In this document: one piece after another, positions 13,401 through 41,731 of the stretch
How positions within the stretch are numbered: the first letter of the stretch is position 1
How the letters are laid out: each line of letters begins with the position of its first letter
Source: Paraspadella gotoi
Lineage: Eukaryota; Animalia; Chaetognatha
Direction of reading: 5' to 3'
Assembly (NCBI GenBank): GCA_051294375.1
Contig: CM119270.1
Location: 2,557,484-2,621,483, forward strand
DNA: 64,000 bases
Translations under genes and position numbers: made by a program
Notes under the pieces: generated by a model
Seen by the model: the letters and a program-made list of their open reading frames with translations, nothing else
Databases searched by the model: none
Told to the model about the DNA's origin: nothing

Positions 13401-14011
13401 CGGGGTGCGTCGCCTGATCAGATGGCGGTTGTTTGGCGGGTGGCGGAGCGGATGGCCGCGTGTGGCTGGTGGGCGGCGTTCGGACGGGGTTTCTCATGGC
13501 GCCGATTTTTTATAGCATGGTCCGCCATCTCGCCGATTCGACCATGTAACCCGATCCGTTTTCCTTCCCCTTCCGGTCCCCACCGTTTACCTTCTTACCA
13601 ATTCCACCGCAATGCTCTGTCCGGAAATTCAGATCTTCGCCAGTCGCGGTTAAGTAATCTAGAAAACGCGCTCTAAACGAAGAAGCCTCGGAGGTAGAGA
13701 TGCAGAGAGAGCGATAGACGCGGCAGCGGTGAGGAAGAGAGAGCAGCAGAGATGCAGAGAGAGAGCAGACGAGAAGAGATCGAGGAAGACAGACGAGACG
13801 GAGAGCATGAAGGACAGAGAAGCGAAAGGAAACGACTACGAGAACAGTAGAGCTTTTGAGAACGAAAACAATGTCGAGTGAACATTCATTATTTTTAACG
13901 TTAACTTTATTCTGACAAATTATAAAACCGACAAACCAAGTATCACACAAATAGCCACGTTATTATTAACGAACTTATTAACGAACACGAACTGTAATAA
14001 ACTGTAAAAAA

Positions 14012-14264
14012 GCATAGGCGACGCGTTGGAACGAGGAGGCTCTGATGACGGTCCGCAGGATAATAATTCAGTGAACCCTGCGGACGCGACTCAGATGCAC
14101 TATGTGAAACAACACAATGAAAGGCTGTGTATGCAATCGCATAGTGTCTGCGCGGTACCCTGAAGATGGCATACCAGCTCTTCCCCGTACGTCCTTAAGG
14201 GGTCTCCATCAACGTCGCCAGGCCCCGAGTTTAGAGGGGTTACAGGTCGACGCCAAACCCGGCC
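14012..14264 (-). ncRNA. 7SL/SRP-RNA-like structured RNA, copy 1
   Basis: Minus strand starts GGCCGGGTTTGGCGTCGACCTGTAACCCC...GGGGCCTG (Alu fold with UGUNR). GGCGACG after the Alu domain pairs perfectly with the 3'-terminal CGTCGCC; ends at TTTTTT. Confidence 0.75.
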
Positions 14265-14713
14265 TGAAGAAAATATTGTGTGTGAAGTGAAATAGTGATC
14301 TTTGAGCGTGAAGTATTCTATTAGTAGGAGAAGAATTAGCCGATGTTGATGATTTGATTGACTGACTGATGAGTGGATTTATTTATTTTTTTTTTTGCAT
14401 GATCGGTAGTAATTCCTTTCATTTCGTTGTTGTTTGATAGTTGTTTCGTATAGAGTTTTTTTTTTTTTTGGTTTTTTTTTTTTAAGAGTTTGTTTTAAAA
14501 AGTTTCTCAACGAAGAAGAAGAAGATAAGAAAGAAAGAAAGAAAGAAGAAAGAAAGAAAGAAAGAAGGAAGAAACGAAAGAGCACAAGTAAGTCAGAGAA
14601 AGAAAGAAAGCGAAAGAAAGACAGTAAAAATTCAAGTTACATTGATCTGGCAAACTCATGGACTTAATGGATCTAAATAGTTCTTTACGCGCACAAAATT
14701 AACGAAATAAAAA

Positions 14714-14960
14714 TGTTGGCGACGTGTTAGAAACCGAGGAGGCTCTGATGACGTTCCGCAGGATAATATCGCTGTACCCTGCGGATCCGCCTCAGACGAC
14801 ACTATGTCAAGCTACGCACCTACGTATGCAATGCACATAGTGCCCAGCGGGTACCCTGAGGTTGGCCATACCAGTTATTCCCGTACGTCCTTGACCGGTT
14901 CCGTCAACGTAACCAGGCCCCCGATTTACACCAGGGTTACAGGTCGACGCCAAACCCGCC
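14714..14960 (-). ncRNA. 7SL/SRP-RNA-like structured RNA, copy 2
   Basis: GGCGGGTTTGGCGTCGACCTGTAACCCTG...CGGGGGCCTG Alu fold; stems CACTATGT/ACATAGTG, TCTGA-GGCG/CGTC-A-TCAGA and TCCGCAGG/CCTGCGGA; ends at TTTTT. Confidence 0.8.
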
Positions 14961-14971
14961 TGAAGAATTAT

Positions 14972-14995
14972 ATGTGTGAAGTGAATTAGTCAATC
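14972..14995 (-). promoter_or_regulatory. Conserved upstream element of the SRP-like RNA genes (consensus GAATCACTAATTCACTTCACAC on minus); counterparts at ~14279, 15494, 16097 and 16693
   Basis: + strand gtgtgaagtgaattagtga(t) recurs ~12-35 nt 5' of all five RNA starts, while the spacers farther away diverge. Confidence 0.55.
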
Positions 14996-15186
14996 CAGAG
15001 AGAAAATATTTCTTTCAGAGGAGATGAATATGGTGATAGATTAGATTGATCGATCAACTGCATGAGTGCGCATTGATTTTTTTACTGTTTTTTTTGGTAA
15101 GAATTTGGTTTTAAAAAGTTTTTACTTGTAAGAAAGAGAAGAGCAGAGAGAACAAATGGAAATTAATGTAGGAAAATTTAATAAAA

Positions 15187-15482
15187 TTATTGGTGACGTG
15201 TAAGAACGGACGAGGCTCTAATCTTGAACGTTCCGCAGCGATTATATATGGACCTGCTACCCTGCGGAGCTTCTCCAGCCTTCAGCATGCACACTATGTC
15301 AAGCATACGAATTTAGGCGGACCATTATGTAATCTGGCAATGCACAATAGTGCCCTCGCGGGTTACCCTGCAGATGTTTAGGTAGTTGGCATACCAGTAT
15401 TCCCCGTACGTCCTTGACCGGTTCTGTCAACGTAACCAGGCCCCCGAATACATAGGGGTTACAGGTCGACGCCAAACCCGCC
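15187..15482 (-). ncRNA. 7SL/SRP-RNA-like structured RNA, copy 3 (3' half carries insertions, possibly read errors)
   Basis: Clean Alu fold TGTAA-CCCC...GGGG-GCC; TGGT..ACGT..AGAAC pairs with 3' GTTCT..ACGT..ACCA; ends at TTTT. Confidence 0.7.
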
Positions 15483-15837
15483 GGAAGAAAAAAAGTGTGA
15501 AGTGAATTAGTGATTCGTAAGAATTTGTTTTAAAAATTTTCTTACTTGTAAGAGAGAGAGAAAGAGAGAGAGATAAAGAGAGATAGAGATAGAGATAGTG
15601 AAAGAGAGAGATAGATAGAGAGTGGATAGGGAGTGGGAGAGAGAGGGGGGAAGAATGAGACGATAGAAAAAAGATTAAAATGGAGAGAAAAAGAAAGAAA
15701 GAGAGAATGATATTAGATGACAGAAGATTTTTAAGTTAACTGTGGACGTACATACCAACATACGTACATACCAACAAAGTGACGCACATACTCACATTCT
15801 TCACGCAACAAATAAATGAAATAAAATTTAACCAAAA

Positions 15838-16085
15838 GGTGGCGACGCGTAAGAAGTTAGGAGGCTCTGATGACAGTCCGCAGGAGATTACCCAATCCTG
15901 CGGAGATGCCTCAGACAACACTACATCAAGCATATGGTGCACCGGAACACCATACGCAATGCACATAATGCCTGCGGGTACCCTGATGATGGTTTAACAG
16001 TATTCCCCGCACGTCCTTTTTTAGTTCTTTCGACGTAACCAGGCCCCCGAGTACACAGAGGTTACAGGTCCACGCCAAACCCGCC
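15838..16085 (-). ncRNA. 7SL/SRP-RNA-like structured RNA, copy 4
   Basis: GGCGGGTTTGGCGTGGACCTGTAACCTCTGTGTACTCGGGGGCCTG; stem GCGTATGGTG/CACCATATGC; compensatory GGCA/TGTC versus GGCG/CGTC in copy 2; ends at TTTT. Confidence 0.8.
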
Positions 16086-16230
16086 TTGAAAACGAAAGCG
16101 TGAAGTAAATTATTCATTCGACTTATTTATTTAATAGGTCACAAATTTAGCGACTGATTGATTAATGAGTTAAGTAATTTTTTTTAGTGTTGTTTGTAAG
16201 AATTTGTTTTGAAAAGTTTGAGAGAGAGAA

Positions 16231-16271
<41 letters not shown>

Positions 16272-16418
16272 TTAGATAAAATAAGTTTCAACGAACAATG
16301 TCGTGTGAATTTTCAGATTTTTAAGTTATTTGTGGACAGACAAACGATAAGATAGGCAGACCAACAAAGTGAAACTTATTGTCACGTTTTTCACGCGCCA
16401 AGACAACTGTAATAAAAA

Positions 16419-16680
16419 TAGAGAGACGCGTCAGAACCAAGGATCGAGACCGCTCTGATGACTTTCCGCAGGATATTACCGCAGCACCCTACGAAATCGC
16501 CTCAGACAACACGACGTCAAACATACGGCTATAGCTCGTCGCCGTATGCTATGCACATCGAATCTGCGGGTACCCTTGTGATTGCATACAAAGTATTCCC
16601 CGCACATTCTCTACCGGTTGTTCCTACGTCCCCAGGCTCCCGTGTGTACAGGGATTACAGGTCGTCGCCTAAACCCCGCC
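16419..16680 (-). ncRNA. 7SL/SRP-RNA-like structured RNA, copy 5
   Basis: GGCGGGGTTTAGGCGACGACCTGTAATCCCTGTACACACGGGAGCCTG, with helix 4 TCCC/GGGA as in vertebrate 7SL/Alu; stem CATACGGC/GCCGTATG; ends at TTTTT. Confidence 0.75.
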
Positions 16681-16824
16681 TGGCGAAAATCCGTCTGAAG
16701 GGAATTGCTGATTCGAGATGAATTAATTTTGGAAATATAATAGAGCGAATGACAAATGGAAACGTTTTTGAAAGCTTTTTATTAGAAGATTTGTAAAAGC
16801 TTTTCTTACTTGAAACGAGGAGAG

Positions 16825-17589: not shown

Positions 17590-18571
17590 GTAAGTTGTTG
17601 TTTAATAAAAACTATGGTTATGTTTTGTTTTTTAGTTATTGATTTATTGATTTATTTTTTTATTTATTTTATTTTTGCTTTTTAATTCACTATAAATATC
17701 TGAGTGAAACATGTACATTACAATTTTGTTCGTGTCTCAGACGTTTATCATTTTCTTGAGTTGTCTAATTTATTTTGACAGTCATCTTCGTTTTCACTTA
17801 GATAACAAAAACTAGAGCGAAATCAACATTCTGAATGAATTTTTTTTCTTCGTAATTTTACCCAAAATTATTAATAACATTTGAATCATTGAAGCTATAT
17901 CAAGCATTAGACGTCGACGCTTTACAATTTTAAAATCATAATAACTTTTAATATTCGAGTATGAAAGGCGGCAAAATGGATTTTTTTTTCCTTCTCGCTC
18001 GTTCATTCACCTCACAGGGTTCAACACAATTTCATAATTCTTAGCCTCTACCTAATTAATTAATGATTTAGTACGGAGATACATCGTCGTTAAGTTTCTT
18101 CGATCGATTCTACTTTGTGAACTTTTGTTTCAAGTTTTGACGAAATCTTAACCGATTTTGATGAACTCGAAATAAAAATAAAAATTAATTAGGTAATCGC
18201 AAATCCGAACTAGAAAAAGGAAAGAACCGAAATTAAATCAACTTGGGATTTAAGCAATTTTTTTTTTCAAAAAAAATATTCACGAGAAAATACTATTTAG
18301 CCGCAGCTAATTATTTTATCCTCTTTCCGCGACATTTCGTAATTTATTTTTTTAATTATTCATACAATTTATTCTTACCTCGAATTTTGTGATCTAAAGA
18401 AAAGAAAAAAAACCTTTAATTCGTCCTTCTTGAATCAAATAAAAAGGACAAAACGGACAGAAGGACGAGAGCAGCTTAAGCAGCAACCGTTTCAGCATCA
18501 GCGACGCAGGCAGCGTCTTCAGCAGCGTCTTCAACTACATCATCATCGTCGTCACCATCATCGTCGCTCAA

Positions 18572-18784
18572 ATGTGGAAAAGAGACGTCTCCCCGCTTTC
18601 TAACCGCCACGCCCCCTCGGCCGACGAAGCGATTGGCGGCGCTGGAGTGAAGAACCCCTTCGGCTTTGAGGAGTGCCGCGCCGTGGCGGAGTGGCTCGCC
18701 GAGAGGACCTCCATTCGGCCTAGAGTCGGACTCATTTGCGGATCGGGTCTCGGCGGATTGGCCGAGATACTCCAGGATAAGATG
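18572..18784 (+). CDS. PNP: Purine nucleoside phosphorylase exon (5' boundary uncertain, may begin ~18447-18484)
   Basis: FGFEECRAVAEWLAERTSIRPRVGLICGSGLGGLA motif; donor ATG|GTGAGT, phase 0. Confidence 0.93.
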
Positions 18785-18986
18785 GTGAGTGTGGTTGTTG
18801 TTGTTATTGTTGTATTTTGGGGTTTCTGTGTGTCTGTGTGTGTGTATGTGTGTATATGTGTGTGCGTTTGTGTTTTTATGAGTGTGATGGATATATTTTT
18901 TCTCGCACCTTTCCCCCAAAATATATTTTTCTCTCAATTTTTTTAGAATCTTATGACTTTTTTACTTAAATATTTGTTACCTTTTT

Positions 18987-19237
18987 TAGTTGCGTCGCGA
19001 GTACACGCAGAGCAATTCAATTCAATTCAATTCAACTGTTAGGTCGGTCAGTCGTTCTGTCGGCATTTTGTTTTTAAAAAATTCGTATGGAGAATAAAAT
19101 ACGGAATTTTGATGAAGTGCGTGTTTAAACGTGCTAAATACACTCATCGGCCCTGCCACTGCATAACTCATCATAATAATCATTAGATCATAAAAAAATA
19201 AAAGTCACTAGGGCGCAACACATTATTGTTCTTGTTT
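18987..19237 (+). mobile_element. Small Helentron/DINE-1-like (HINE) non-autonomous element in a PNP intron
   Basis: T-run flanks; subterminal inverted repeats GTTGCGTC / GGCGCAAC; internal (AATTC)n and gtcggtcagtc microsatellite; 3' end CTTGTTT. Confidence 0.45.
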
Positions 19238-19342
19238 CAACCATTTCTCCATTTACTCCCTTCATTCTTCTACCCTTCTTTCAACTTTCCTTCTTATTTT
19301 CTTGCCTTTCCACTTGGCCTTACTCAACCCTTACCCTCCAAG

Positions 19343-19472
19343 TCCTTCGACTACAGCGACATCCCAAACTTCCCTACGTCCACCGTCGCTGGACACGAGA
19401 GTCGACTCGTCTTCGGGAGACTCGGCGGACAAGAAGTCGTCTGCATGCAGGGGAGGTTTCACGCTTATGAAG
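19343..19472 (+). CDS. PNP: Purine nucleoside phosphorylase exon
   Basis: [44 protein letters not shown]; AAG acceptor, G|GTAAG donor, phase 0 to 1. Confidence 0.95.
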
Positions 19473-19777
19473 GTAAGGAAAAAGTAAGTTTAAAACTAGC
19501 CTTTACTTAATTGGACAGAGTTGCGTCTTTATATACAAAGTAGTACCGGAAGTTATGTCAGGCAACTTATTCCTCTTCTTTAAATTAAAAAAAAATATGC
19601 AAATGAGGGTTTAAAATGAGGCTTGTAGAAAACAAAAGATAAATACGATATTCTATTAGTTCCAAAATTCGATTATTTCGAAGTCTTTTCACCGTATGTT
19701 AGTTAATTGACATTTTGTAATTTGTTTTCTTCGCCAAGCAACTCTAGATCCTTTAAACCGCATCATCCTTCAAACAG

Positions 19778-19970
19778 GCTATCCTCTGATGCAGTGCGCC
19801 TTCCCCGTCCGCGTCATGCGTTTCCTCGGCGCCACCGTCATGATCATCACCAACTCAGCCGGAGGTCTCAACGTGGACTACAAGGCGGGCGACATCATGG
19901 TCTTGAAGGACCAAATCAATTTGCCGGGATTTTCGGGAGACAATCCTTTAAGGGGACCCAATGACGAGAG
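19778..19970 (+). CDS. PNP: Purine nucleoside phosphorylase exon
   Basis: YPLMQCAFPVRVMRFLGATVMIITNSAGGLN...DQINLPGFSGDNPLRGPNDER; CAG acceptor, AG|GT donor, phase 1 to 2. Confidence 0.95.
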
Positions 19971-20393
19971 GTTTGGGAGGGGGGGTTTAAGGGAATGGGG
20001 CCTTGTGCTCAGCGTATATATGTGAAGTTTGGTCATAGAATATTCTGTAAATAGTAGTAATATTAACATTTCTGATGCCTATGGTGGGAGATATATAAGC
20101 TTATAAAGAAACATGAACGTTGAACAATTAATACGGAATGAGAATTTTATTTCATATTATTATATTATTATATATCATTATTATTATATTTCATTAATAT
20201 AGGAATTTAATTTAAGTGCCTTTGTTATTTTTATGAATTTTGTAAAACTAATATTTAAATTATAAATTCATTTTATAAACAAGCTATCCGAAATCTGAAT
20301 ACGATAGGCAGAGAGCTTTATTTTAAGTTAAATATTTAATTATTTAGATAAGATACCAAATTTTAGTCATACCACCTATCCTTTTTTCACCAG

Positions 20394-20558
20394 ATTCGGT
20401 CCCAGATTCCTAGCGATGAATCGCGCCTACGATCGTTCATTGCGCGATTTATTATTAGCGTCGGCAGAAGAGTTAAACCTTACCTTTGTTCGAGTAGGGA
20501 CGTACGTGAAGATAGGCGGACCTTGCTACGAGACGCCATCTGAGGCAAGGGCTTTGAG
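20394..20558 (+). CDS. PNP: Purine nucleoside phosphorylase exon (not in the ORF track)
   Basis: FGPRFLAMNRAYDRSLR...GTYVKIGGPCYETPSEARALR; CAG acceptor, AG|GTAAG donor, phase 2 to 2. Confidence 0.95.
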
Positions 20559-20814
20559 GTAAGATTGCGCTATTGGAGAAATGTCCATGAGGCTTTTGAA
20601 AGTAGGTAACATTTTTTTTAAGAAAGAAACGAAAATTATTAAAATCACCTAATGATGATGATTATTTTTTCAAATTTATGACCGATTTGTCATAATTTTA
20701 TCAGATTCCCTTTTATAAGACAAAAATTTATACATGGTCATATACAATGCTTCATTGCGAGCATATACAGAAACAATTTAAAACGAAACATCATAAATCA
20801 AAAAGTTTATATTA

Positions 20815-20922
20815 TATAATTTATTTTATGAAATTGGTACAACCAATATAAAAATTATCCATCCATTTAATAAATAAGCTATCTTGTCCCTGACTTTGGA
20901 CAGGCTTTGGTGGTTTAAGGCC
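20815..20922 (+). repeat. Dispersed repeat; inverted copy at ~61078-61178 and partial copy at ~55895-55950
   Basis: aattggtacaaccaatata...taataaataagctatcttg..ctgactttggacaggctttg.tggtttaag versus its reverse complement at 61078-61178. Confidence 0.65.
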
Positions 20923-21115
20923 TCCATCACACTTGCAAGATAATAACATAACAGGTTTCTGCAAGCTTTTAATCAAGCCTCTCTCTATTATAAAACAGTA
21001 AATTCTGGTTCGCCTCTAATTCCCAACCAATTTCCCTTCAACCTCACTTTTTTACTCACCCCCCATCCTCGACCCTTACCTTCCCTCTATTCCCCACCCC
21101 TTCTTCATCTACCAG

Positions 21116-21263
21116 GATGTTGGGGGCGGACGCGGTGGGGATGTCCGTCGCCCACGAGGTTATCATCGCCGTCCACTGCGGGATGCGGGTCGTGGGGATG
21201 TCGCTAATTGCCAATTTGGTCGTCGACGATGTTGACGAGGTTGTGGAGACGAATCACGAGGAG
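21116..21263 (+). CDS. PNP: Purine nucleoside phosphorylase exon (not in the ORF track)
   Basis: MLGADAVGMSVAHEVIIAVHCGMRVVGMSLIANLVVDDVDEVVETNHEE; CAG acceptor, GAG|GTGAG donor, phase 2 to 0. Confidence 0.95.
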
Positions 21264-21445
21264 GTGAGGTCCGGGTAAAGTGGAAGGAGGGTGGGGTCAG
21301 GTTGGGTTCTGGATGGGGTTGGGTCAAGTGGGGTTTTATATTTCTTTCTTTCTTTCTTTCTTTTTTTCTTTCTTTCTCTCCTTTTTCTTCTTTTCATGTT
21401 TTCTTTCCTCTCTTTTTTATATTCTTCTTTCTTTTTTTCTTCTTT

Positions 21446-26189: not shown

Positions 26190-29100
26190 AGAGAGAGAGA
26201 GAGAGAGAGAGAAAGTTTAGGCTTCGGACTTTTACGCTTGGTTTATTATTGACGGATGTTTATTGCACGGTTTTGCCATGGAAAACTCGACGAGAAGAGA
26301 GGGGAAAACCCGAAGTCGCAGGGTGGAAAAGAAGTGGGGAGGGTTGGAAAACAGGGTGAGAGGGTGGAAAAGGAGTGGGAGGAGTGGGAAAAAAAGGGTG
26401 AGAGGGTGGAAAAAGGGCGGTAGAGGGGTGGAAAAGGGGTGAGAGGGGTGGCAAAAGGGGTGTGGAAGGGGAAGAAAAGGCGCGGAGCTGGGGTTGAGAG
26501 GGATGGTATAAAGGGTTACCGAGGGCTGGGGGGATGACAAAGGGCTGTGAGAGGGTGAAAACGAGGTGTGAGAAGGAGGGAAGAAAAGGGGGTGAGAGGT
26601 GTTTTTTAAAGTGAAGGAAGGTTGAGGCGCGGGTGGTTAGAAAGATGTGGGACGACCAATTTTGGGTAATTGCCGACGCATATCGAGAATAAGGCAAATG
26701 GCGCATCCGTGGGGCAAAGTAGTTAATTTTGAATCAGTTTGACGTCAAGCTGGAGCTTTGAAATGCCAGGAGGACACTTAAAATATTGGGTGGCGGGTAT
26801 ATTCGCCCACCGTTCTTGGCTCCAAATAAAGCCCCGAATCGCATTGCTCTGAGGCGCGGCAGGGAAGCGTCAGTTCCAGCCTGCCCAGTGCCATGCCATG
26901 CCGATGCCAGACGTTAAACAAGCGACGGCGTGAACAAGGTTCTGCTTTGAGTTGGATCAAAATACGCTGGATCCGGTCTGACGGTTGGTCCCGACACTTT
27001 GATGTGAGGAAGAGAAGAGACGGAGAGGAGGAGGAGAGGGGAGATTAAGGGGAACGTCCCAGAAAGAGAAAGAAGAAAAGCCGGAGAGTGGGAAGAGGGG
27101 AGAAAGGGGAGAAGGGGAAGGCGCGACAAAAAAAAAAGAAAGCATGGAAGTGGAATATCTAAAATGCCCTAATTGTTAAATAACAAAACAACTATAGCCA
27201 GTTGGATGGCAAACAAATGGTCGGATCTGGAGAGCCCTACAAATAATTTAAGCAAGAAGAAATAAGCTAATACGGAATGATTGATTCTTGGTAATGGTTT
27301 ATTACTGAACTTTAAATTTATGATGCTTAAACAAGGATGCATAACACGTTATCTAAGTATAAAAGGAAGGGTTGAGAGGAAGCGAAAGACAAGATGTCGG
27401 ATCATGCCGAGAGAAACGAGAGAAGAGAGGAATCGATTGTACTTGAGGAGAGAGAGCGTAATTAATTAGAATAATAATAATTCAACGTTAGATTAATTAA
27501 TTAGCGGCAAAGACATTAATTAATCTGATATTTGCATCCGAAAAATGGTTGTTACGTTGGGAAGTATAATTAAGTTGAGCAAGAGGAACTGATTAATTAA
27601 TTAAATTTGATTAATTATTGAGAGAGAGAGGCATTAGCTAGTAGAGTTAGTATTAGAAGGCTGATTTAAAGTGCTTAGATTAGTTTTTCGGCGCAAATTC
27701 TCTACTTTATATCGTTCGTCTATTTTCCTCGGTCGAAAGAGAGAGAGAGAGAGAAAAGTTTAGGCTTCGACTTTTACGCTTGTTTATTATTGACGGATGT
27801 TTATTGACGGTTGCCATGGAAACTCGACGAGAGAGGGGGAAACCCGGAAGTCGAGGGGTGGAAAANNNNNNNNNNNNNNNNNNNNNNNNNGAAGTGGGAA
27901 GGGTTGGAAAAAGGGTGAGAGGGTGGAAAAGGAGTGAGGAGTGGGAGAAAAAAAAAAGGGTTTGAGAGGGTGAAAAAGGGCGGTAGAGGGTGGGAAAAGG
28001 GTTGTGAGAGGGTGGAAAGGGGTGTGGAAGGGGAAGAAAAGGGGAGTGAGAGGGATGGTAATAAAGGGTTTAGAGGGATGAAAAGGTGTGAGAGGGTGAA
28101 AAGAGGTGGAGAAGGGGGGAAGAAAGGGGGTGAGAGGTTTAAAGTGAAGGAAGGTTGGGGTGTTAAGAAATTGGAGACAATTTGGTATTTGACGATATGA
28201 GAATAGAAATGGGCATCCGTGGGGGCAAATAGTTAATTTTTGAATCAGTTTGACCGCAAGCGAGTTTGAAATGCCAGAGACACTTAAATATTGTGGCGGG
28301 TATATTCGCACAGTTCTTGGCTCCAAATAAGCCGCCAATCCATTGGCTCTGAGGGCGGAGGGAACGGCGTCATTCCAGCCTTGCCATGCCATGCCATGCC
28401 TATGCCCAGACGTTAAACAAGCGACGTGAACAAAGGTTCTGTTTGAGTTGGATCAAAATACGCTGATCGTTGACGTTGGTCCGACACTTTGAGTGTGAGG
28501 GAAGGAGGAAGAGGAGGAGGAGGAGGAGGAGGAGGGGAGATTAAGGGGAAGTCAGAAAGAAGAAAGAGAAAAAGCTGGGAGGAGTGGGAGAGAGGGGAGA
28601 ATAGGGGAGAAGGGGAAGTGCGGACAAAAAAAAGAAAAGCATGGGAAGTGGAATATCTAAAATGCCCTAATTGTTAAATAACAAAACAACTATAGCCAGT
28701 TGGATGGCAAACAAATGGTCGGATCTGGAGAGCCCTACAAATAATTTAAGCAAGAAGAAATAAGCTAATACGGAATGATTGATTCTTGGTAATGGTTTAT
28801 TACTGAACTTTAAATTTATGATGCTTAAACAAGGATGCATAACACGTTATCTAAGTATAAAAGGAAGGGTTGAGAGGAAGCGAAAGACAAGATGTCGGAT
28901 CATGCCGAGAGAAACGAGAGAAGAGAGGAATCGATTGTACTTGAGGAGAGAGAGCGTAATTAATTAGAATAATAATAATTCAACGTTAGATTAATTAATT
29001 AGCGGCAAAGACATTAATTAATCTGATATTTGCATCCGAAAAATGGTTGTTACGTTGGGAAGTATAATTAAGTTGAGCAAGAGGAACTGATTAATTAATT

Positions 29101-30445: not shown

Positions 30446-30644
30446 CGGTTCGTCGAAAATGTTGCGCCTCAGAAATCGGATATAAAGCGACGACGGTTAT
30501 AACGAGATCGAATCTTAACGTCGATATCATTTTTTTTTTAATTTTCTTTCTTTTTTTTATTTATTTACCTTAATTTTTTCCTTTCTTTCCATTTTTCTTT
30601 TCTTTTCCCTTTGTCTCCCTGCGCCATATATATTTTCTTTTCTC

Positions 30645-30965
30645 TTTTCATTCTTCCTTATTCCTCATTCCTCATTTCTCATTCTCTTTTCTCTTTTCAT
30701 TCTTCCTTATTCCTCATTCCTCATTCTCTTTTCTCTTTTCATTCTTCCTTATTCCTCATTCCTCATTCTTTTTTCTCTTTTCATTCTTCCTCATTCCTCA
30801 TTCTTCATTCTCTTTTCTCTTTTCATTCTTCCTTATTCCTCATCCCTCATTCTCTTTTCTCTTTTCATTCTTCCTTATTCCTCATTCCTCATTCTCTTTT
30901 CTCTTTTCATTCTTCCTCATTCCTCATTTTTCATTCTCTTTTCTCTTTTCATTTTTCCTTATTCA
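30645..30965. repeat. 42-bp pyrimidine minisatellite, about 7 copies
   Basis: cattctcttttctcttttcattcttccttattcctcattcct units. Confidence 0.9.
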
Positions 30966-31413
30966 ACATTCCACCTTTGTTTTATTTTTTTTTCTTCTCA
31001 TTTTGTTTTCTATTTTCTTTTCTTCTTAATATCTCCTCCTTCTTTCTCTTTCATTTATTCTTTCTCAATTATCATTTCCTTTTTTTTCTCTCTCTCATCC
31101 TTCTCGCTCCTCCCTAATACTCTCTCCTCTTTCCTTCTTTTTCCTCCTCTTTTTCCTCCTCTTTTTCTCCTGTCTTCTATTCTTTCCTCCTTTTTCTTTC
31201 CCTCCTATCTCCTTTTCTCTTCTCTTCTCTCCTTTCTCCTCCTCTCTTCCTTTCTTTCCTCTCTTCTCTCCTCCTCTCTCTTCCTCTCTCCTCCTTTCTT
31301 TTTTTCTTTCCTCCCTTCTCTTCTTTCCTTCAATCCTCCTCTAGAAAACATTGTCGTTGACCCCCTGCTTTACTTGGCCGACCTTTCAACTCTGAGGATT
31401 TCGTTTTTCTTTG

Positions 31414-33010: not shown

Positions 33011-34839
33011 CAAATGATTGTGAAAAGGCAAAAATCACATCAGCGTAAATAAACAAGAACTCCATTGATGCGTAATCATGAAGAGTTTTTGGTGTTGATT
33101 AAATAGTTAACATATATATCTTTAATCTTCAATAATGTGTTTTTATCATTGGTTGACCAATGACCATCGATGCGATAAAATTTAAAAACTGCGACAAGTA
33201 AATTGGGGTTAACAGGAATTCAAACCTAACAAATTATTTCGACTAGTATATTTTCAGTTTTAAATAACTTTTTAATATATATATATATTTTTAATCCATA
33301 ATAACAATATATAACGTAAGCGTGGGGAAGAAAATATTTTTTTCTTTAATCAATCGTAAATCTTTAAAAAACTTTCTCTCTTCTCTTTCGTCTCAATTGT
33401 CTCGTTTCTTCCCCCCCCACCGTCTGCTCGAAAAACTCCTTTTAAATTCGGCCTCTTATCTCGACATCCCTTCAACTAACTTACCTTCCTTACCTCAGTC
33501 CCTTCAAACGCCCCCCTTTATCGCGGTGATCATCACTCCAGTGAAAAAAAATCACGATCTTAATCTCACTTCGCTCTCACGACTTTTTTTTTTAATTCGA
33601 GAGGAAGGAGTTAAGGTGAGAGAATTTGAGTGGGAAAGGTAAGAAAATAAGGAATCAGTTGTGAGGTGAGGTGAAGGGACGAGTGTGAATCACATTGTGA
33701 TTGAGATGGTAAAAAAGGATTATATTTGACCACACCACACCAATTCATCAGTATCAGTGTCAGTGTCATCCATACGGAACAGCCTAACGCTACAAAGCCT
33801 AGTTCCCTTTCCAAGGCTACTAAAGGTTATTAACTAATTAAATAATTAATTGAGAATCGAACAAAATTAATTCTTATCTTAGCAGACTTAATTGCGTGAC
33901 AAAAAATATCACCGGCCAAGTTTTCCACGCCCCCTCTCCCTCTCCCATCTTCCCTTCCCCCTCCCTCCCTTCACCTCCCCTTCCCCTCTCTCTCTCCCCC
34001 TCTCTTCTCCTCCTCTCCATTCCACTCTCCCCTCCCCCTCTCTCTCCCCCTTCCCCTCTCCCTCCCTTCTATCCTTTCCCTCTCCTTCTTCTCTCCGCCC
34101 CTTCTCCTTACCTTTCCTTCCCCCTCTCCCTCTCCCTTCCCCTCCACCTCTCCCCCTTCCCCTCCCCCTCTCCCCTTCCTCCCTGCTCTCCCTTCCTCCC
34201 TCTTGGGACTCGTCTCAACAAAATCGACTCTCTCGTCATCGACGGAAAATTAGTCCTACAATCGAACGGAAAGACTTTTCTCTCGCTCTTCTTTAAATTC
34301 CAGCGGATGTTCACCGCTCCCTCATTCCCTCATTCCTTCATTTCTTCTCTCTTCCTTCCCTCCCTCCACCTCGTCCTTCCCCTCCACCCCCCCAAACGAA
34401 ACCCCCAAATGGCGGACTCTGGGTGGGCCACAACTTTTGGGGCAGACGAAGAAGAAAGAAGAAGAAAGAAGAAGATAGAAAGTTTGAGGAAAGAGAAACG
34501 AAATCTTTTGGTTTTTAAGACGAAATTTCGACTCCCGATTTTGTTTTGTTTTTCCCGTTTTTCTTCTCCTTTCGTGAGTTTCACAACCGACATTTTCCTT
34601 TTTTTTTCTTTTTTTTTCTTTTATTTTCTTGTCTTGTCTCTTTTCCTTTGCCTTATCATGTCCGTTCATTGGTCGCACGGTAAGAAAAAATAAAAAATAT
34701 GCAAATGAGGTTTGTAATTAATATGTAGTAAGTATAAATGTAGAAATGTTTAGCAAACAATGCCTCGCCAAGTTTTTATCCTTGACTTTCTTTTTCATTT
34801 CTCCCAGGTTCAAGGTTCGACTCCAGGTCTCTTTCTCAA

Positions 34840-34886
<47 letters not shown>

Positions 34887-36913
34887 AGGGAAAGTTCGAC
34901 TCGAATTTCACAAAAGAATTAATCGCGAAATAAGAAAATTAGGAGGGGGGGGCGGGAAAAAATCGGTGGATTTTCGAATCTTATTTTTTAGACATACTCG
35001 ATAAGATTGTTACGCGCCGATCATGATTTGGCACGACAGTGGCCTCGGGACTCTAATTGATATCTGTGTCCTGCCTCGCCCTTTTCCCGCGAAGATTCGA
35101 TTCGAACGTGAAGATTAATCATGATTATCATTATTGTGCAGAACGTCGCACAAGAAATCAGTGTCTCTTTTAAATCTGCGGACATTAAACGCTTTTTACC
35201 GCGTTGGTGGTTTATCTTTAAAAGTAACGTTTATTCACTATTAAATGAAAGTTTTAATGATTGAATGAATCAATGAATGGATAAATTTGAATGATTGAGT
35301 ATCAATTATTCAATGAATGAATAATGAAATAACTTTTCGAAGAAAATACTTTTTTTAAAAAAATGAACCAATATCTCATACCGGTAATTCTTCCTTGAAA
35401 GTCGTTTATCTTTGCACCTTCCCCTCCTCCTCTTCCTCCTCCTCCTCCTCCTCCTCCTCCTCCTCCAATTTCCCAGTTTGTTTGTTTAGCAGCTGCTTTG
35501 TTTTCTCTTTGTTTATTTTTCTTTCTTTTCTTTTTTCTTTTTTTTTCCGCCCGAAAGTCCGAAGTTTCTTTTCTTCATTTCCGCCTTTCGAGAATTTTCT
35601 TCGACTTCGCCTAAAATTCAGATCTAGAAAAATACTTTTTTTTCCTTTTTTTTTTTTTCAGTCACGGATTTCTCCGAGTCTGAATTAACGGAAAATAACA
35701 TTTCAAAAAGTAGTATTGAAACATAAAGACTTTGAGTGCCGCCTACCGGCCATATTTTCACGGGGAAACGGAGAAAGCAAAGTAAGGCGAAAGGGGGAAA
35801 AAAATGTCAATACAATTCTCCCTTTCTAAGATAAAAATGGAAGTTAAAACCTTTATAAATAAAAAAAGTGTGACTTTATGAGATATGGTCAAATAAATTT
35901 TAAAACCAATTTTCAAAAAAATACTGTTGATCATTTTCGAAACAAAAGGCGGCAGTGACCGACATTTGGTATTTTTCGCAATTAACTCAATTTAATTTGA
36001 ATGAATAAATTGAAAGTTATCCTACCAAAAACGTTTGATAGAATTTCCCATTGGCTAAATCATCGTCCAATCATCAGCCAGCATTCCTTAATTTTAAAAA
36101 TACAAACGTAAAAAAAAATTGGAAGAAAGAAATTCTTAATATTTTTCCTCACAAATTCGTTTGTTTTTGATCAACAACAGAAAATGACAAATCTATCAAA
36201 ATATTTCTCTAAAGAGAGAGAGAGAGAGAGAGAGTTGAATTTTTTTATCCCTCGGCGTTTTTAATGAGGTAGAATTTCATGAAAGGCTGCTTCTCTTTCT
36301 CTTTCTCTTTCTATTTTTCAGCATCATTGAGACGAAGGCAAGCGCCGGGGATAAACATTAACAGATCTACTCGAGGCAAAGAAAAAAGGAAAGAAAGAAA
36401 GAGGGAATAAAACAGAAAGAAAGAAAGTAAGAAAGTTAAATGAAAAAAAAATAAAAGAGAAATTAGAGAAAATTAAAAATGTTAAGATAGACAAACCATC
36501 ATGGATATAAACACAAAATTTAGAAGAAAAAAAACATTTCAGAAAATGTACAAACAACAGTTTTGTAATTATTCGATTTTTAGTTTGACTTGTGTTTGCC
36601 ACATGTCGTAACAAACCCACTTACACATATTTTTTTCCCTTTCGGTCTCCTTCTCCCTCTCTGTCTCTCTCTATCTCCCTCTCTCTCACTCACGGGGGTC
36701 CTGTCCCTCAGGAACTGGAACATATGCAGCCACTCCCGCTTCCAATCGGCTCAAAAACCTCGTCTTCCCCAATCGGCTTAAATTTTGAGTAGCTCTTGAG
36801 GTCAAAGTTCAAACGGGTTTAAATAATTGAGACTTTTGCATAGCAAGTTCATTTAGGTTTCAATCAAAATACTATCTAACTTTTGTGATAATTTTTTTGT
36901 CATTATATGATAA
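33011..36913 (+). repeat. ~3.9-kb direct duplication, copy A
   Basis: Colinear with 37895-41731 throughout, differing mostly by small indels. Confidence 0.92.
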
Positions 36914-37894: not shown

Positions 37895-39757
37895 CAATGT
37901 GATTGTGAAAAGGGCAAAATATCAACATCACGTAAATAAACAAGAACTCCATTGATGCGTAATCATGAAGAGTTTTTGGTGTTCGATTAAATAGTTAACA
38001 TAATAATATCTTTATCTTCAATAAATGTGTTTTTCATTGGTTGACCAAATGACCATCGATGGCGATAATTTAAAAAGCCGACAGTAAATTGGGGTTAACA
38101 GGAATTCAAACCTAACAAATTATTTCGCTAGTTATATTTCAGTTTTAAAATAATTTTTATATATATAATATATTTTTAATCCATAATACAATAATATAAC
38201 GTAAGGTGGGGAAAGAAAAATTTTTTCTTTAATCAATCTGAAATCTTTAAAAAAAAACTTTCTCTCTCTCTTTCGTCTCAATGTCTCGTTTCTTCCACCA
38301 CCGTCTGCTCGAAAAAACTCCTTTTAAATTCGGCCTCTTATCTCGACATCCCTTCAACTAACTACCTTCCTTACCTAGTCCTTCAAACGCCCCCTTTATC
38401 CGTGATCATCATCAGTGAAAAAAAATCACGATCTTAATCTTCACTTCGGCTCTCTACGACTTTTTTTTTAAATTCGAGAAAGGAAGAGTTAAGGTGAGAG
38501 AAATTGAGTGGGAAAGGTAAGAAAATAAGGAATCAGTTTGAGGGTGAGGTGAAAGGGACGAGTGTGAATCACATTGTGATTGAGATGGTAAAAAAGATTA
38601 TAATTTTGACCACACCACCACCAATTCATCAGTATCAGTGTCCAGTGTCATCCATACGGAACAGCCTAACGCACAAAAGCCTTTCCCTTTCCAAGGCTAC
38701 TAAAGGTTATTAACTAATTAATATTAATGAGAATCCGAACAAAATTAATTCTTATCTTAGCAGACTTAATTGCGTACAAAAATATCAACGGCCAAGTTTC
38801 CAACGCCCCCACTCTCCCTTTTCCCAATCTTCCCTTCCCCTCTCCTCCCTTCACCTCCCCTTCCGCCTCTCTCTCTCCCCCCCTCTTCTTCCTCCTCTCT
38901 CCATTCCACTCTCCCCTCCCCCTCTCTCCCTTCCCCTCTTCCGCTCCCTTCTATCCATTCCCTCATCACCTTCCTCTCCCGCCCTCCCCTTTACCTTTCC
39001 TTCTCCCCTCTCCCTCTCCCTTCCCTCCACCTCTCCCCCTTCCCCTCCCCACTCTCCCCCTTCCTCCCTCTCTCTCCTTCCTCCCTCTGTGGGACCTCGG
39101 GTCTCACTAAAAATCGGACTCTCTCGTCATCGGACGGGAAATTATCCTACCAAATCGAACGGAAAGCTTTTCTCGCTCTTCTTTAATCCAGCCGGTATGC
39201 TATCACGCTCCTCTTCACCTCATTCCTTCATTATTCTTCTCTCTCCTTCGCTCGCCTTCACCTTCGTACCTTACTCTCTTCTCCACTCCCCCCCAAACGA
39301 AACCCGCCAAATGGCGGACTCTGTGGGCCACTTTGGGGCAGTACAGAAGAGAAGAAGAAGAAGAAGAAGAATAGAAAGTTATGAGGAAAGAGAAACGAAA
39401 TCTTTGGTTTTTAAAGACGAAATGTTCGAACATCCGCGATTTTGTTTTGTTTTTCCCGTTTTTCATTCTCTTTCGTGAGTTTCTTACAAGCCGACAATTT
39501 CTTTTTTTTTCTTTTTTTTTCTGTTGTATTTTCTTGGTCTTGTCCTCTTTTCTTTCCTAATCATGTCCGTTCATTGGTCCGCAACAGGTAAGAAAAAAAA
39601 AAAATATGCAAATAGGTTTTGTAATTATATGTAGTAAGTATAAATGTAGAAATGTTTAGCAAACAATGCCTCGCCAATTTTTTTATCCTTGACTTTTCTT
39701 TTTCATTTCTCCAGGTTCAAGTTCGACTCCAGGTCTCTTCTCAAGGTGTCTCTCTCT

Positions 39758-39791
<34 letters not shown>

Positions 39792-41060
39792 TGAGGGAAA
39801 GTTCGACTCGAATTTCACAAAAGAATTAATCGCGAAATAAGAAATTAGGAGGGGGGGGCGGAAAAAATCGGTGGATTTTCGAATCTTATTTTTTAGACAT
39901 ACTCGATAAGATTGTTACGCGCCGATCATGATTTTGGCACGACAGTGGCCTCGGGATCTAATTGATATCTGTGTCCTGCCTCGCCCTTTTCCCCGCGAAG
40001 ATTCGATTCGAACGGAAGATAAGAAGATTATCAATGATTATCATTATCATTAAATCTGCGGACATTAAACGCTTTTTTACCGCGTTGGTGGTTTATCTTT
40101 AAAAGTAACGTTTATTCACTATTAAATTGAAAGTTTTAATGATTGAATGAAATCAATGAATGGATAAATTTTGAATGATTGAGTAATCAATTATTCATGA
40201 ATGAATAATGAAATAACTTTTCGAAGAAAATACTTTTTTAAAAAAAATGAACCAATATCTCATACGGTAATTCTTCCTTGAAAGTCGTTTATCTTTGCAC
40301 CTTCCCCTCCTCCTCTTCCTCCTCCTCCTCCTCCTCCTCCAATTTCCCAGTTTGTTTGTTTAGCAGCTGCTTTGTTTCTTCTTGTTTATTTTTCTTTCTT
40401 TCTTTTTTTTTTTTTTTCCGCCCGAAAGTCCGAAGTTTCTTTTCTCATTTCCGCTTTCGAGAATTTTCTTCGACTTCGCCTAAATTTCAGATCTAGAAAA
40501 ATACTTTTTTTCCTTTTTTTTTTTTCAGTCACGGATTTCTCCGAGTCTGAATTAACGGAAAATAACATTTCAAAAGTAGTATTGAAACATAAAGACTTGA
40601 GTGCCGCCTACCGGCCATATTTTCACGGGAAACGGAAGAAAGCAAAGTAAGGCGAAAGGGGGAAAAAAATGTCAATACAATTCTCCCTTTCTAAGATAAA
40701 AATGGAAGTTAAAACCTTTATAAATAAAAAAAGTGTGACTTTATGAGATATGGTCAAATAAATTTAAAACCAATTTCAAAAAAATATCGTTGATCATTTC
40801 CGAAACAAAAGGCGGCAGTGACCGACATTTGGTATTTTTCGCATTAACTCAATTTAATGAATGAATAAATTGAAAGATCCTACCAAAAACGTTTGATAGA
40901 ATTTCCCATTGGCTAAATCATCGTCCAATCATCAGCCAGCATTCCTTAATTTTAAAAATACAAACGTAAAAAAAAATTGAAAGAAAGAAATTCTTAATAT
41001 TTTCCAAAATTGTTTTTGTCAACAACAGAAAATGACAAATCTATCAAAATATTTCTCTAA

Positions 41061-41093
<33 letters not shown>

Positions 41094-41731
41094 TTGAATT
41101 TTTTTATCCCTCGCGTTTTAATGAGGTAGAATTTCATGAAAGGCTGCTTCTCTTTCTCTTTCTCTTTTCTATTTTTCAGCATCATTGAGACGAAGGCAGA
41201 CGCCGGGATAAACATTAACAGATAGGCAAAGAAAGAAGAAGAAAGAAATAAAGAAAGAAGTGAAAGTTAAATGAAAAAAAATGAAAATTAGAGAAATTAA
41301 AAGATAGACAAACCATCAATGGATATAACACAAAATTTATGAAGAAAAAAAACATTTCAGAAAATGTACAAACAACAGTTTTGTAATTATTCGATTTTTA
41401 GTTTGACTTGTGTTTGCCACATGTTCGTAACAAACCCACTTACACATATTTTTTTCCTTTCGGTCTCCTTCTCTCCTCTCTGTCTCTTCTCTATCTCCCT
41501 CTCTCTCACTCAGGGGGGTCCTGTCCTCAGGAACTGGAACATATGCAGCCACTCCCGCTTCCAATCGGCTCAAAAAACCTCGTCTTCCCAATCGGCTTAA
41601 ATTTGAGTAGCTCTTGAGGTCATAGTTCAAACGGGTTTAAATAATTGAGACTTTTGCATAGCGAGTTCATTTAGGTTTCAATCAAAATACTATCCAACTT
41701 TTGTGATAATTTTTTTGTCATTATATGATAA
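37895..41731 (+). repeat. ~3.9-kb direct duplication, copy B
   Basis: Colinear with 33011-36913. Confidence 0.92.

What the first reader, a model, noticed from the sequence alone, without database searches (positions are those of the whole stretch)
14730..14890. S domain is rewired: SRP54-binding helix-8 motif is absent and replaced by a three-hairpin junction
Seen (coordinates for copy 2; the stems are recognisable in all copies, with more mismatches in copies 3 and 5): after a short helix 5 (up to AGGA/TCCT) come three hairpins, CGGG/CCCG, CACTATGT/ACATAGTG with an inner GCATAC-type stem, and TCTGA..TCCGCAGG/CCTGCGGA..TCAGA. Colinear echoes of 7SL remain (TATGCC..GGGT..CCGC..CACTA; TATGGTG..CACCA in copy 4; GTTGTCTGAGG versus human GTTGCCTAAGG). 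However, CAGG is paired with CCTG instead of facing AGCA, and no conserved GNRA/GNAR tetraloops exist. Established: the CAGG/AGCA symmetric loop and those tetraloops are needed for SRP54 and SRP19 binding in all canonical SRP RNAs. Inference: these RNAs probably cannot form a normal SRP and may be neofunctionalised SRP9/14 RNPs (translation-arrest or decoy RNAs analogous to BC200/scAlu). Alternatively they are an extremely divergent true SRP RNA.
Basis: partly seen in the sequence, partly recalled or inferred. Interest (0 to 1): 0.8.

Follow-up and report, generated by a model that had tools for sequence, protein, structure and literature searches.

The report
SRP-like RNA missing its universal core
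Five tandem small-RNA genes in an unidentified animal keep the front (Alu) half of the signal recognition particle RNA but lack the helix-8 motif otherwise found in all such RNAs; one version is transcribed, and the RNA likely works as a translation-tuning particle, though it could instead be this animal's only, radically rebuilt SRP RNA.

Summary
Five genes of about 250-266 nt (copy 3 reads 300 nt) lie in tandem at 14008-16680. Each has an upstream element, an SRP-type Alu domain with UGUAA, and a 3' T-run. Helix 5 is only about 28 nt per strand. It opens into three predicted hairpins in which CAGG pairs with CCUG. No copy has a helix-8 symmetric loop or a conserved GNRA/GNAR loop. Rfam Metazoa_SRP scores at most 20 bits (cut-off 70) and skips helices 6-8. 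The genes are not eroding: bodies stay 70% alike while distal flanks have fallen to shuffle level, and changes cluster in loops. A run shown to be RNA-seq holds a contig across the whole rewired S domain and no flank. The family looks low-copy, not a SINE. Copy 3's extra mismatches are probably assembly errors. No genome was available, so a canonical 7SL elsewhere and SRP54 could not be checked. Best reading (0.45): a 7SL-derived SRP9/14 RNP that cannot load SRP19/SRP54. Close rival (0.37): the animal's real SRP RNA, without helix 8.

The parts
14008..14264 (-). Copy 1, 7SL-derived RNA gene (about 257 nt, ends in T-run)
14710..14960 (-). Copy 2 (about 251 nt); reference copy of the finding
15183..15482 (-). 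Copy 3 (300 nt as assembled; S domain probably error-rich). The expressed contig is of this type
15834..16085 (-). Copy 4 (about 252 nt)
16415..16680 (-). Copy 5 (about 266 nt); best Rfam Metazoa_SRP match, 20 bits, E 0.022, helices 6-8 skipped
14914..14960 (-). Copy 2 Alu 5' domain (helices 3 and 4), UGUNR motif at 14937-14941; predicted SRP9/14 site
14884..14913 (-). Copy 2 short helix 5, 5' strand (about 28 nt); its 3' strand is about 14714-14743
14847..14883 (-). Hairpin 1: GC stem with a conserved purine-rich internal loop (GAAUA/GGUA; loop-E-like by recall, untested), variable apex
14800..14842 (-). Hairpin 2: CACTATGT/ACATAGTG outer stem with an inner stem and variable apex; likely distal helix 5 plus the helix-6 remnant
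14744..14796 (-). Hairpin 3, in the helix-8 position: CAGG Watson-Crick paired to CCUG, no symmetric loop, variable 9-13 nt apex
14709..14713 (-). T5 run, predicted Pol III terminator of copy 2; all five copies have at least T4 at the same place
14280..14293 (-). Upstream element, copy 1 (about -16 to -29); likely external Pol III promoter
   Evidence: 7 matches, 1.68 expected; 5 lie upstream of the 5 copies
14974..14987 (-). Upstream element, copy 2
15495..15508 (-). Upstream element, copy 3
16098..16111 (-). Upstream element, copy 4
16693..16706 (-). Upstream element, copy 5

Best explanation
These are five conserved, likely Pol III-transcribed genes for a 7SL-derived RNA that keeps the Alu domain but lacks the helix-6 and helix-8 motifs, and is predicted to bind SRP9/14 but not SRP19/SRP54, so it likely forms a translation-tuning Alu-type particle beside a canonical 7SL gene inferred, not seen, elsewhere in the genome. 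Inferred history: one ancestral 7SL copy lost the helix-8 apex and part of helix 5's 3' strand, the orphaned strands re-paired into three hairpins, and the gene was then duplicated in tandem and kept under selection. Inferred action: SRP9/14 loads on the UGUAA domain, and the RNP slows elongation at the factor-binding site or hands SRP9/14 to 40S subunits, as mammalian Alu RNPs do. The invariant hairpin-3 stem and the hairpin-1 internal loop bind a further protein (SRP68/72 or a new partner) that sets where or when this happens. Shown: sequence, motif loss, conservation pattern, a transcript contig. Predicted: fold. Inferred: partners and function.
For: Alu domain aligned by Rfam in copies 2, 3, 4 and 5; UGUNR in 5 of 5. 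Helix-8 motif in 0 of 5; the covariance model drops helices 6-8. Helix 5 has 28-35 nt per strand against about 79 consensus positions, which by inference is too short to reach from the factor site to the tunnel exit. Forcing a longer helix 5 costs 12-16 kcal/mol in 4 of 4 copies tested. Bodies 0.70 identical (shuffled 0.47); distal flanks 0.50 and 0.51 (shuffled 0.49 and 0.48), over 10 pairs. Apical loops vary (3/13, 3/25, 4/15 columns invariant) while stems hold (16/24, 17/34, 31/40). Run X9 is RNA-seq (one contig joins three PNP exons) and holds one 186-nt contig wholly inside the RNA body. Even noncanonical fungal SRP RNAs all keep the A-C pair (PMC4605306, parts 1-3 of 6 read). Known reductions of true SRP RNA keep helix 8 and shrink the Alu domain (same paper, plus recall), the reverse of what is seen here.
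Against: No canonical 7SL has been seen. In RNA run X9 the only record laid on the array at 80% or more was the helix-8-less type (1 record). The variants whose S domain was visible in the DNA runs are all rewired. The most invariant element sits in the helix-8 position, as expected of a true SRP RNA. 7SL-derived SINEs are reported only in some mammals and hagfish, all with a central deletion (PMC13023118, passages), unlike these genes. Covariation is weak. Hairpin 1 is not predicted in copies 1 and 2 as assembled. Expression rests on one contig in one study, with no strand, ends or level.
Confidence: 0.45

Rival explanations
1. These genes are the animal's only SRP RNA. Hairpin 3 is a rebuilt helix 8 whose symmetric loop has closed into Watson-Crick pairs, and SRP54 has co-diverged or binds through protein contacts instead.
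For: Several low-copy genes with an external element and T-run, as is usual for SRP RNA (8 + 4 candidate copies in S. mansoni; PMC2770079 passages). Hairpin 3 is the last hairpin before the 3' strand, keeps CAGG on its 5' arm and is the most invariant part (31 of 40 columns). It is the only SRP-like contig laid from the RNA run. SRP RNAs that models missed have turned out real: basidiomycetes (PMC4605306) and permuted Thermoproteus RNA (PMC4731332, abstract only).
Against: Those precedents keep the A-C pair; this RNA has none. Helix 5 is about a third of the consensus length. A canonical gene under 80% alike, or one removed by the tool's human-likeness filter, would not have been laid.
Confidence: 0.37
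2. Decaying or passenger duplicates of a canonical 7SL, with at most one copy weakly transcribed and no function.
For: Copies differ by 23-37%. Only one type is seen in RNA. An earlier AI note on another genome (e1-7352826) read a similar case this way.
Against: The same rearrangement is in all five copies. Body and upstream element are conserved while distal flanks are at shuffle level. Changes fall in loops or keep pairing. Gene conversion confined to the body could mimic part of this.
Confidence: 0.1
3. Not SRP-derived: another Pol III RNA class or a SINE whose 5' end only resembles the Alu domain.
For: Rfam scores are only 12-20 bits, E 0.02-0.47.
Against: Metazoa_SRP is the only family hit on any copy, always on the minus strand from model position 1. 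Order of parts fits (5' G, helix 3, UGUAA, helix 4, end-to-end helix 5, T-run). No A-tail. 52 records were laid on the array in X1, against 11,974 on a stretch holding a true repeat.
Confidence: 0.08

Closest known systems
Metazoan SRP (7SL) RNA, Rfam RF00017
   Same: Alu 5' domain with UGUNR, end-to-end helix 5, T-run end, similar total length, several gene copies
   Different: No helix-8 symmetric loop or GNRA loop, no helix-6 GNAR loop, helix 5 about one third of consensus length, an extra fold-back hairpin; 20 bits at best against a cut-off of 70
Noncanonical basidiomycete SRP RNAs (PMC4605306)
   Same: Missed by standard models because helix 8 is altered
   Different: They keep the invariant A-C pair and helix 6 and have a reduced Alu domain; this RNA keeps the full Alu domain and loses the pair
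BC200, scAlu and rodent 4.5SH RNA (PMC10137851 passages; PMC4357698 and PMC11581171 search listing only)
   Same: 7SL-derived Pol III RNAs without an SRP54 site; 4.5SH genes lie in tandem repeats; Alu RNPs act on translation through SRP9/14
   Different: Mammalian, arose through SINEs, S domain deleted; here an invertebrate-type animal, low copy, with a conserved S-derived three-hairpin module
7SL-derived SINEs (Alu, B1, Tu, Urop, hagfish Ebu1-1; PMC13023118 passages)
   Same: Alu-domain head
   Different: No central deletion of about 183 nt, no A or repeat tail, few copies

Membership tests
Eukaryotic SRP RNA (RF00017) | [quoted passage not shown] | tested here: met
   Covariance-model alignments of copies 2, 3, 4, 5; UGUAA in 5 of 5
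Eukaryotic SRP RNA (RF00017) | Pol III-type gene: purine start, 3' U-run | tested here: met
   5 of 5 by sequence; true RNA ends not measured
Eukaryotic SRP RNA (RF00017) | Long helix 5 joining Alu and S domains | tested here: not met
   28-35 nt per strand against about 79 consensus positions; extending it costs 12-16 kcal/mol
Eukaryotic SRP RNA (RF00017) | Helix 6 with GNAR tetraloop (SRP19 site) | tested here: not met
   No shared GNAR/GNRA loop; apex 3 of 25 columns invariant
Eukaryotic SRP RNA (RF00017) | Helix 8 symmetric loop with A-C pair and GNRA tetraloop (SRP54 site) | tested here: not met
   0 of 5 copies, strict and relaxed; model skips helices 6-8
Eukaryotic SRP RNA (RF00017) | Rfam gathering score 70 | tested here: not met
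   0 hits at gathering; best 20 bits
Eukaryotic SRP RNA (RF00017) | Assembles with SRP54 and targets nascent chains | not testable with these tools
   Needs pull-down; no genome held to inspect SRP54
7SL-derived SINE | Central deletion of the S domain, tail, high copy number | tested here: not met
   About 160 nt of S-derived sequence kept; 5 copies in the window; few records laid per run
BC200/4.5SH-type Alu RNA | Transcribed 7SL-derived gene without SRP54 site | tested here: met
   one RNA run only
BC200/4.5SH-type Alu RNA | Alu-only body derived from a SINE | tested here: not met
   S-derived three-hairpin module conserved
BC200/4.5SH-type Alu RNA | Binds SRP9/14 and coexists with canonical 7SL | not testable with these tools
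   No genome, no binding assay

The most novel reading that the evidence does not exclude
This animal has no canonical 7SL: its signal recognition particle runs on an RNA that has lost the helix-8 SRP54-binding motif conserved from bacteria to man, with SRP54 co-diverged or tethered by protein.
Probability: 0.37. Interest if true: 0.92.

Novelty: new variant of a known kind. Interest (0 to 1): 0.74.

Why it matters
Both leading readings are new. If it is the true SRP RNA, the one feature thought universal in cytosolic SRP RNAs is dispensable in an animal, and this gives a natural test of what helix 8 does and of how many animal SRP RNAs current models miss. If it sits beside a canonical 7SL, it is a conserved 7SL offshoot outside mammals and hagfish, arisen without a SINE stage and keeping a remodelled S domain. 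One genome search and one pull-down separate the two.

Tried and rejected
Whole-genome search for canonical 7SL and SRP proteins: no genome held. Relatives in metagenomes: Alu-domain pattern 0 hits; hairpin-1 pattern 5 hits, 5 of 5 chance (no Alu motif, no nhmmer or Rfam hit). No RNA holder was listed by the run search; X9 came in by species label. Plus-strand readings (hammerhead-like CUGAUGA, box C/D): rejected, since Rfam finds none on the copies, GAAA is in copy 2 only, the opposite strand folds no better (z -2.4 to 0.0 against -3.2 to -0.2) and the T-runs and upstream element point to the minus strand. Extended canonical-like helix 5: 12-16 kcal/mol worse. Hairpin-3 5' arm as an internal duplicate of the helix-5 5' strand: shuffle p 0.34, 0.013, 0.11, 0.36 in four copies, not supported. 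The AGCA after CAGG in window copy 3: not taken as a helix-8 remnant, since it has no stem or tetraloop and this copy looks error-rich; 15258-15354 has no cover in the four runs, which alone proves nothing. Lineage from the neighbouring PNP gene: closest proteins (77-80% over one exon) are unnamed environmental ones, and named relatives of one of them are animals at 54-59%, so only 'animal'. Literature: eight searches listed no animal SRP RNA lacking helix 8; the library lacks most subscription papers, and no supplements were read. Earlier-findings look-ups by place and sequence were empty.

Full report
What is there. The finding lies in copy 2 of a tandem array on the minus strand: 14008-14264, 14710-14960, 15183-15482, 15834-16085 and 16415-16680. 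A profile from four copies finds exactly these five in the window. Each starts with G, has UGUAA at position 20-22, ends in at least four T and has a shared element about 13-29 nt upstream (7 matches in the window, 1.68 expected, five of them at the five copies). These are the marks of Pol III genes; the promoter role is inferred. The neighbouring gene is a spliced purine nucleoside phosphorylase whose named relatives are animals; its closest relatives are unnamed environmental proteins, so the lineage is not fixed further.

Ancestry. Nothing in the window reaches an Rfam gathering score. With E-value thresholds, Metazoa_SRP is the only family on the copies: copy 5 20 bits (E 0.022), copy 3 15.4, copy 2 15.1, copy 4 12.3; copy 1 gave no listed hit and was not scanned alone. 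All four alignments match the Alu domain from model position 1. Only copy 5 aligns end to end, and there helices 6, 7 and 8 are skipped by local ends.

The S domain. RNAalifold of copies 1, 2, 4 and 5 (copy 3 left out, see below) gives the same three-hairpin junction; it misfolds the Alu domain, whose canonical fold rests on the Rfam alignments. Over 42 pairs, 160 of 167 cells pair and 3 pairs change on both sides (13 of 500 shuffles). With four related sequences and a structure derived from them, this is weak. Hairpin 3 is predicted in 4 of 4 copies with about 8 of 8 inner pairs; hairpin 1 only in copies 4 and 5. CAGG-GNRA-AGCA is absent from the window, a relaxed symmetric-loop descriptor hits 0 of 5 copies, and the four GNRA/GNAR loops found on 3-bp stems are not shared between copies. 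Helix 5 has 28-35 nt per strand against about 79 consensus positions; forcing the hairpin-1 3' arm to pair with CCUGCGG, which would lengthen it, costs 12-16 kcal/mol. By eye, hairpin 2's two arms resemble the distal helix-5 strands of the Rfam consensus, which would make hairpin 2 distal helix 5 capped by helix 6; this is untested.

Selection, not erosion. Over the 10 copy pairs, bodies are 0.70 identical (shuffled 0.47), the 45 nt upstream 0.63 (0.47), more distal upstream 0.50 (0.49) and downstream 0.51 (0.48). Within the body, invariant columns are 31/40 in the hairpin-3 stem, 16/24 and 17/34 in the other stems and 29/52 in the Alu domain, but 3/13, 3/25 and 4/15 in the three apices. The places where SRP19 and SRP54 would bind are therefore free to vary. 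Gene conversion limited to the gene body could mimic part of this.

Public runs. Eight DNA runs from two studies hold the stretch; one may be the assembly's source. Three were laid with a ninth run, X9 (48 indel rows, 16 loose ends and 79 pieces were not shown). All three DNA runs share indels against the window (14065, 14812, 14846, 14866), so the assembly has errors inside the stems. In X3 a copy-2-like S-domain contig joins copy 3's downstream flank (joint 15187 to 14732), so copy 3 as assembled is probably noisy; its extra mismatches should not be read as decay. The runs also show a variant with copy-1-like flanks and a rewired 3' part, and a more divergent variant seen only as 36-43 nt matches with loose ends; its S domain could not be read, so it remains a candidate canonical gene, although it shares the hairpin-1 region. 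Contig depths on the array (46-103 in X1) are of the order of those on the PNP gene (65-85). Depth is no copy number, but a true repeat in a PNP intron drew thousands of records, so the family looks low-copy.

Expression. X9 is RNA-seq of this organism: one contig joins PNP exons 18510-18779, 19342-19470 and 19776-19970 with one other letter. On the array it gives one record of 186 nt, laid wholly inside the RNA body, from about nt 40 to 213, across the entire S domain including both arms of the inner hairpin-3 stem, and carrying the differences of the copy-3-type DNA contigs. So a helix-8-less version is transcribed. Contigs give no strand, ends or level, and this is one study.

How it likely works. 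The Alu domain is the SRP9/14 site, and helices 6 and 8 bind SRP19 and SRP54 (PMC4605306, parts 1-3 of 6 read; PMC4238359, passages). An RNA with the first and without the others is predicted to form an SRP9/14 particle that cannot target nascent chains. Mammalian Alu RNPs inhibit translation through SRP9/14 (PMC4357698, listing only). I put this reading, beside an unseen canonical 7SL, at 0.45: known divergent SRP RNAs keep the A-C pair and trim the Alu end, and the short helix 5 could not span the ribosome. The rival, that these are the only SRP RNA genes, is close (0.37): no canonical gene was seen, the only SRP-like RNA contig laid is the rewired type, and the most invariant stem sits where helix 8 should be. 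A canonical gene under 80% alike or filtered as human-like would have been missed. Decaying duplicates (0.10) and a non-SRP origin (0.08) fit poorly.

Relation to what is known. It works like an Alu-type RNP by prediction, and it fails three defining tests for membership of RF00017. It differs from 7SL-derived SINEs, which share a central deletion and are reported only in some mammals and hagfish (PMC13023118, passages), and from 4.5SH RNA, which is tandemly encoded but B1-derived (PMC10137851, passages). Eight searches of an incomplete library listed no animal SRP RNA without helix 8. Two metagenome scans found no relative, so conservation beyond this organism is unknown. Verdict: real, conserved, expressed, and new in either leading reading; interest 0.74.

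Noticed in passing
window 18510-21266 (+): Spliced purine nucleoside phosphorylase gene; exons confirmed by RNA contigs. Closest proteins are unnamed environmental ones.
   Followed up: yes
window 20825-20985: Very high-copy repeat of about 160 nt in a PNP intron (thousands of contigs laid in each DNA run, summed depth in the millions); MITE- or SINE-like, not identified.
   Followed up: no
First candidate to check for a canonical helix 8.
   Followed up: partly
runs X1, X3, X5, joints 14097-14824 and 15491-14354: A further variant with copy-1-like flanks, so the array is longer or polymorphic relative to this assembly.
   Followed up: partly
window about 33850-36700 and 38700-41640: Two similar blocks about 4.9 kb apart (matching repeats and frames), suggesting a segmental duplication; a GGTTCGA (B-box-like, recalled) motif near 34815 flanks a CT repeat.
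   Followed up: no
window 30556-31059; 26230-26730 and 27790-28230: A 42-nt tandem repeat (9 registers) and a pair of similar 20-nt-unit repeat blocks.
   Followed up: no
window 14847-14883 and equivalents: Hairpin 1 carries a near-invariant GAAUA/GGUA internal loop that resembles a loop-E or bulged-G motif (recalled; not tested).
   Followed up: partly
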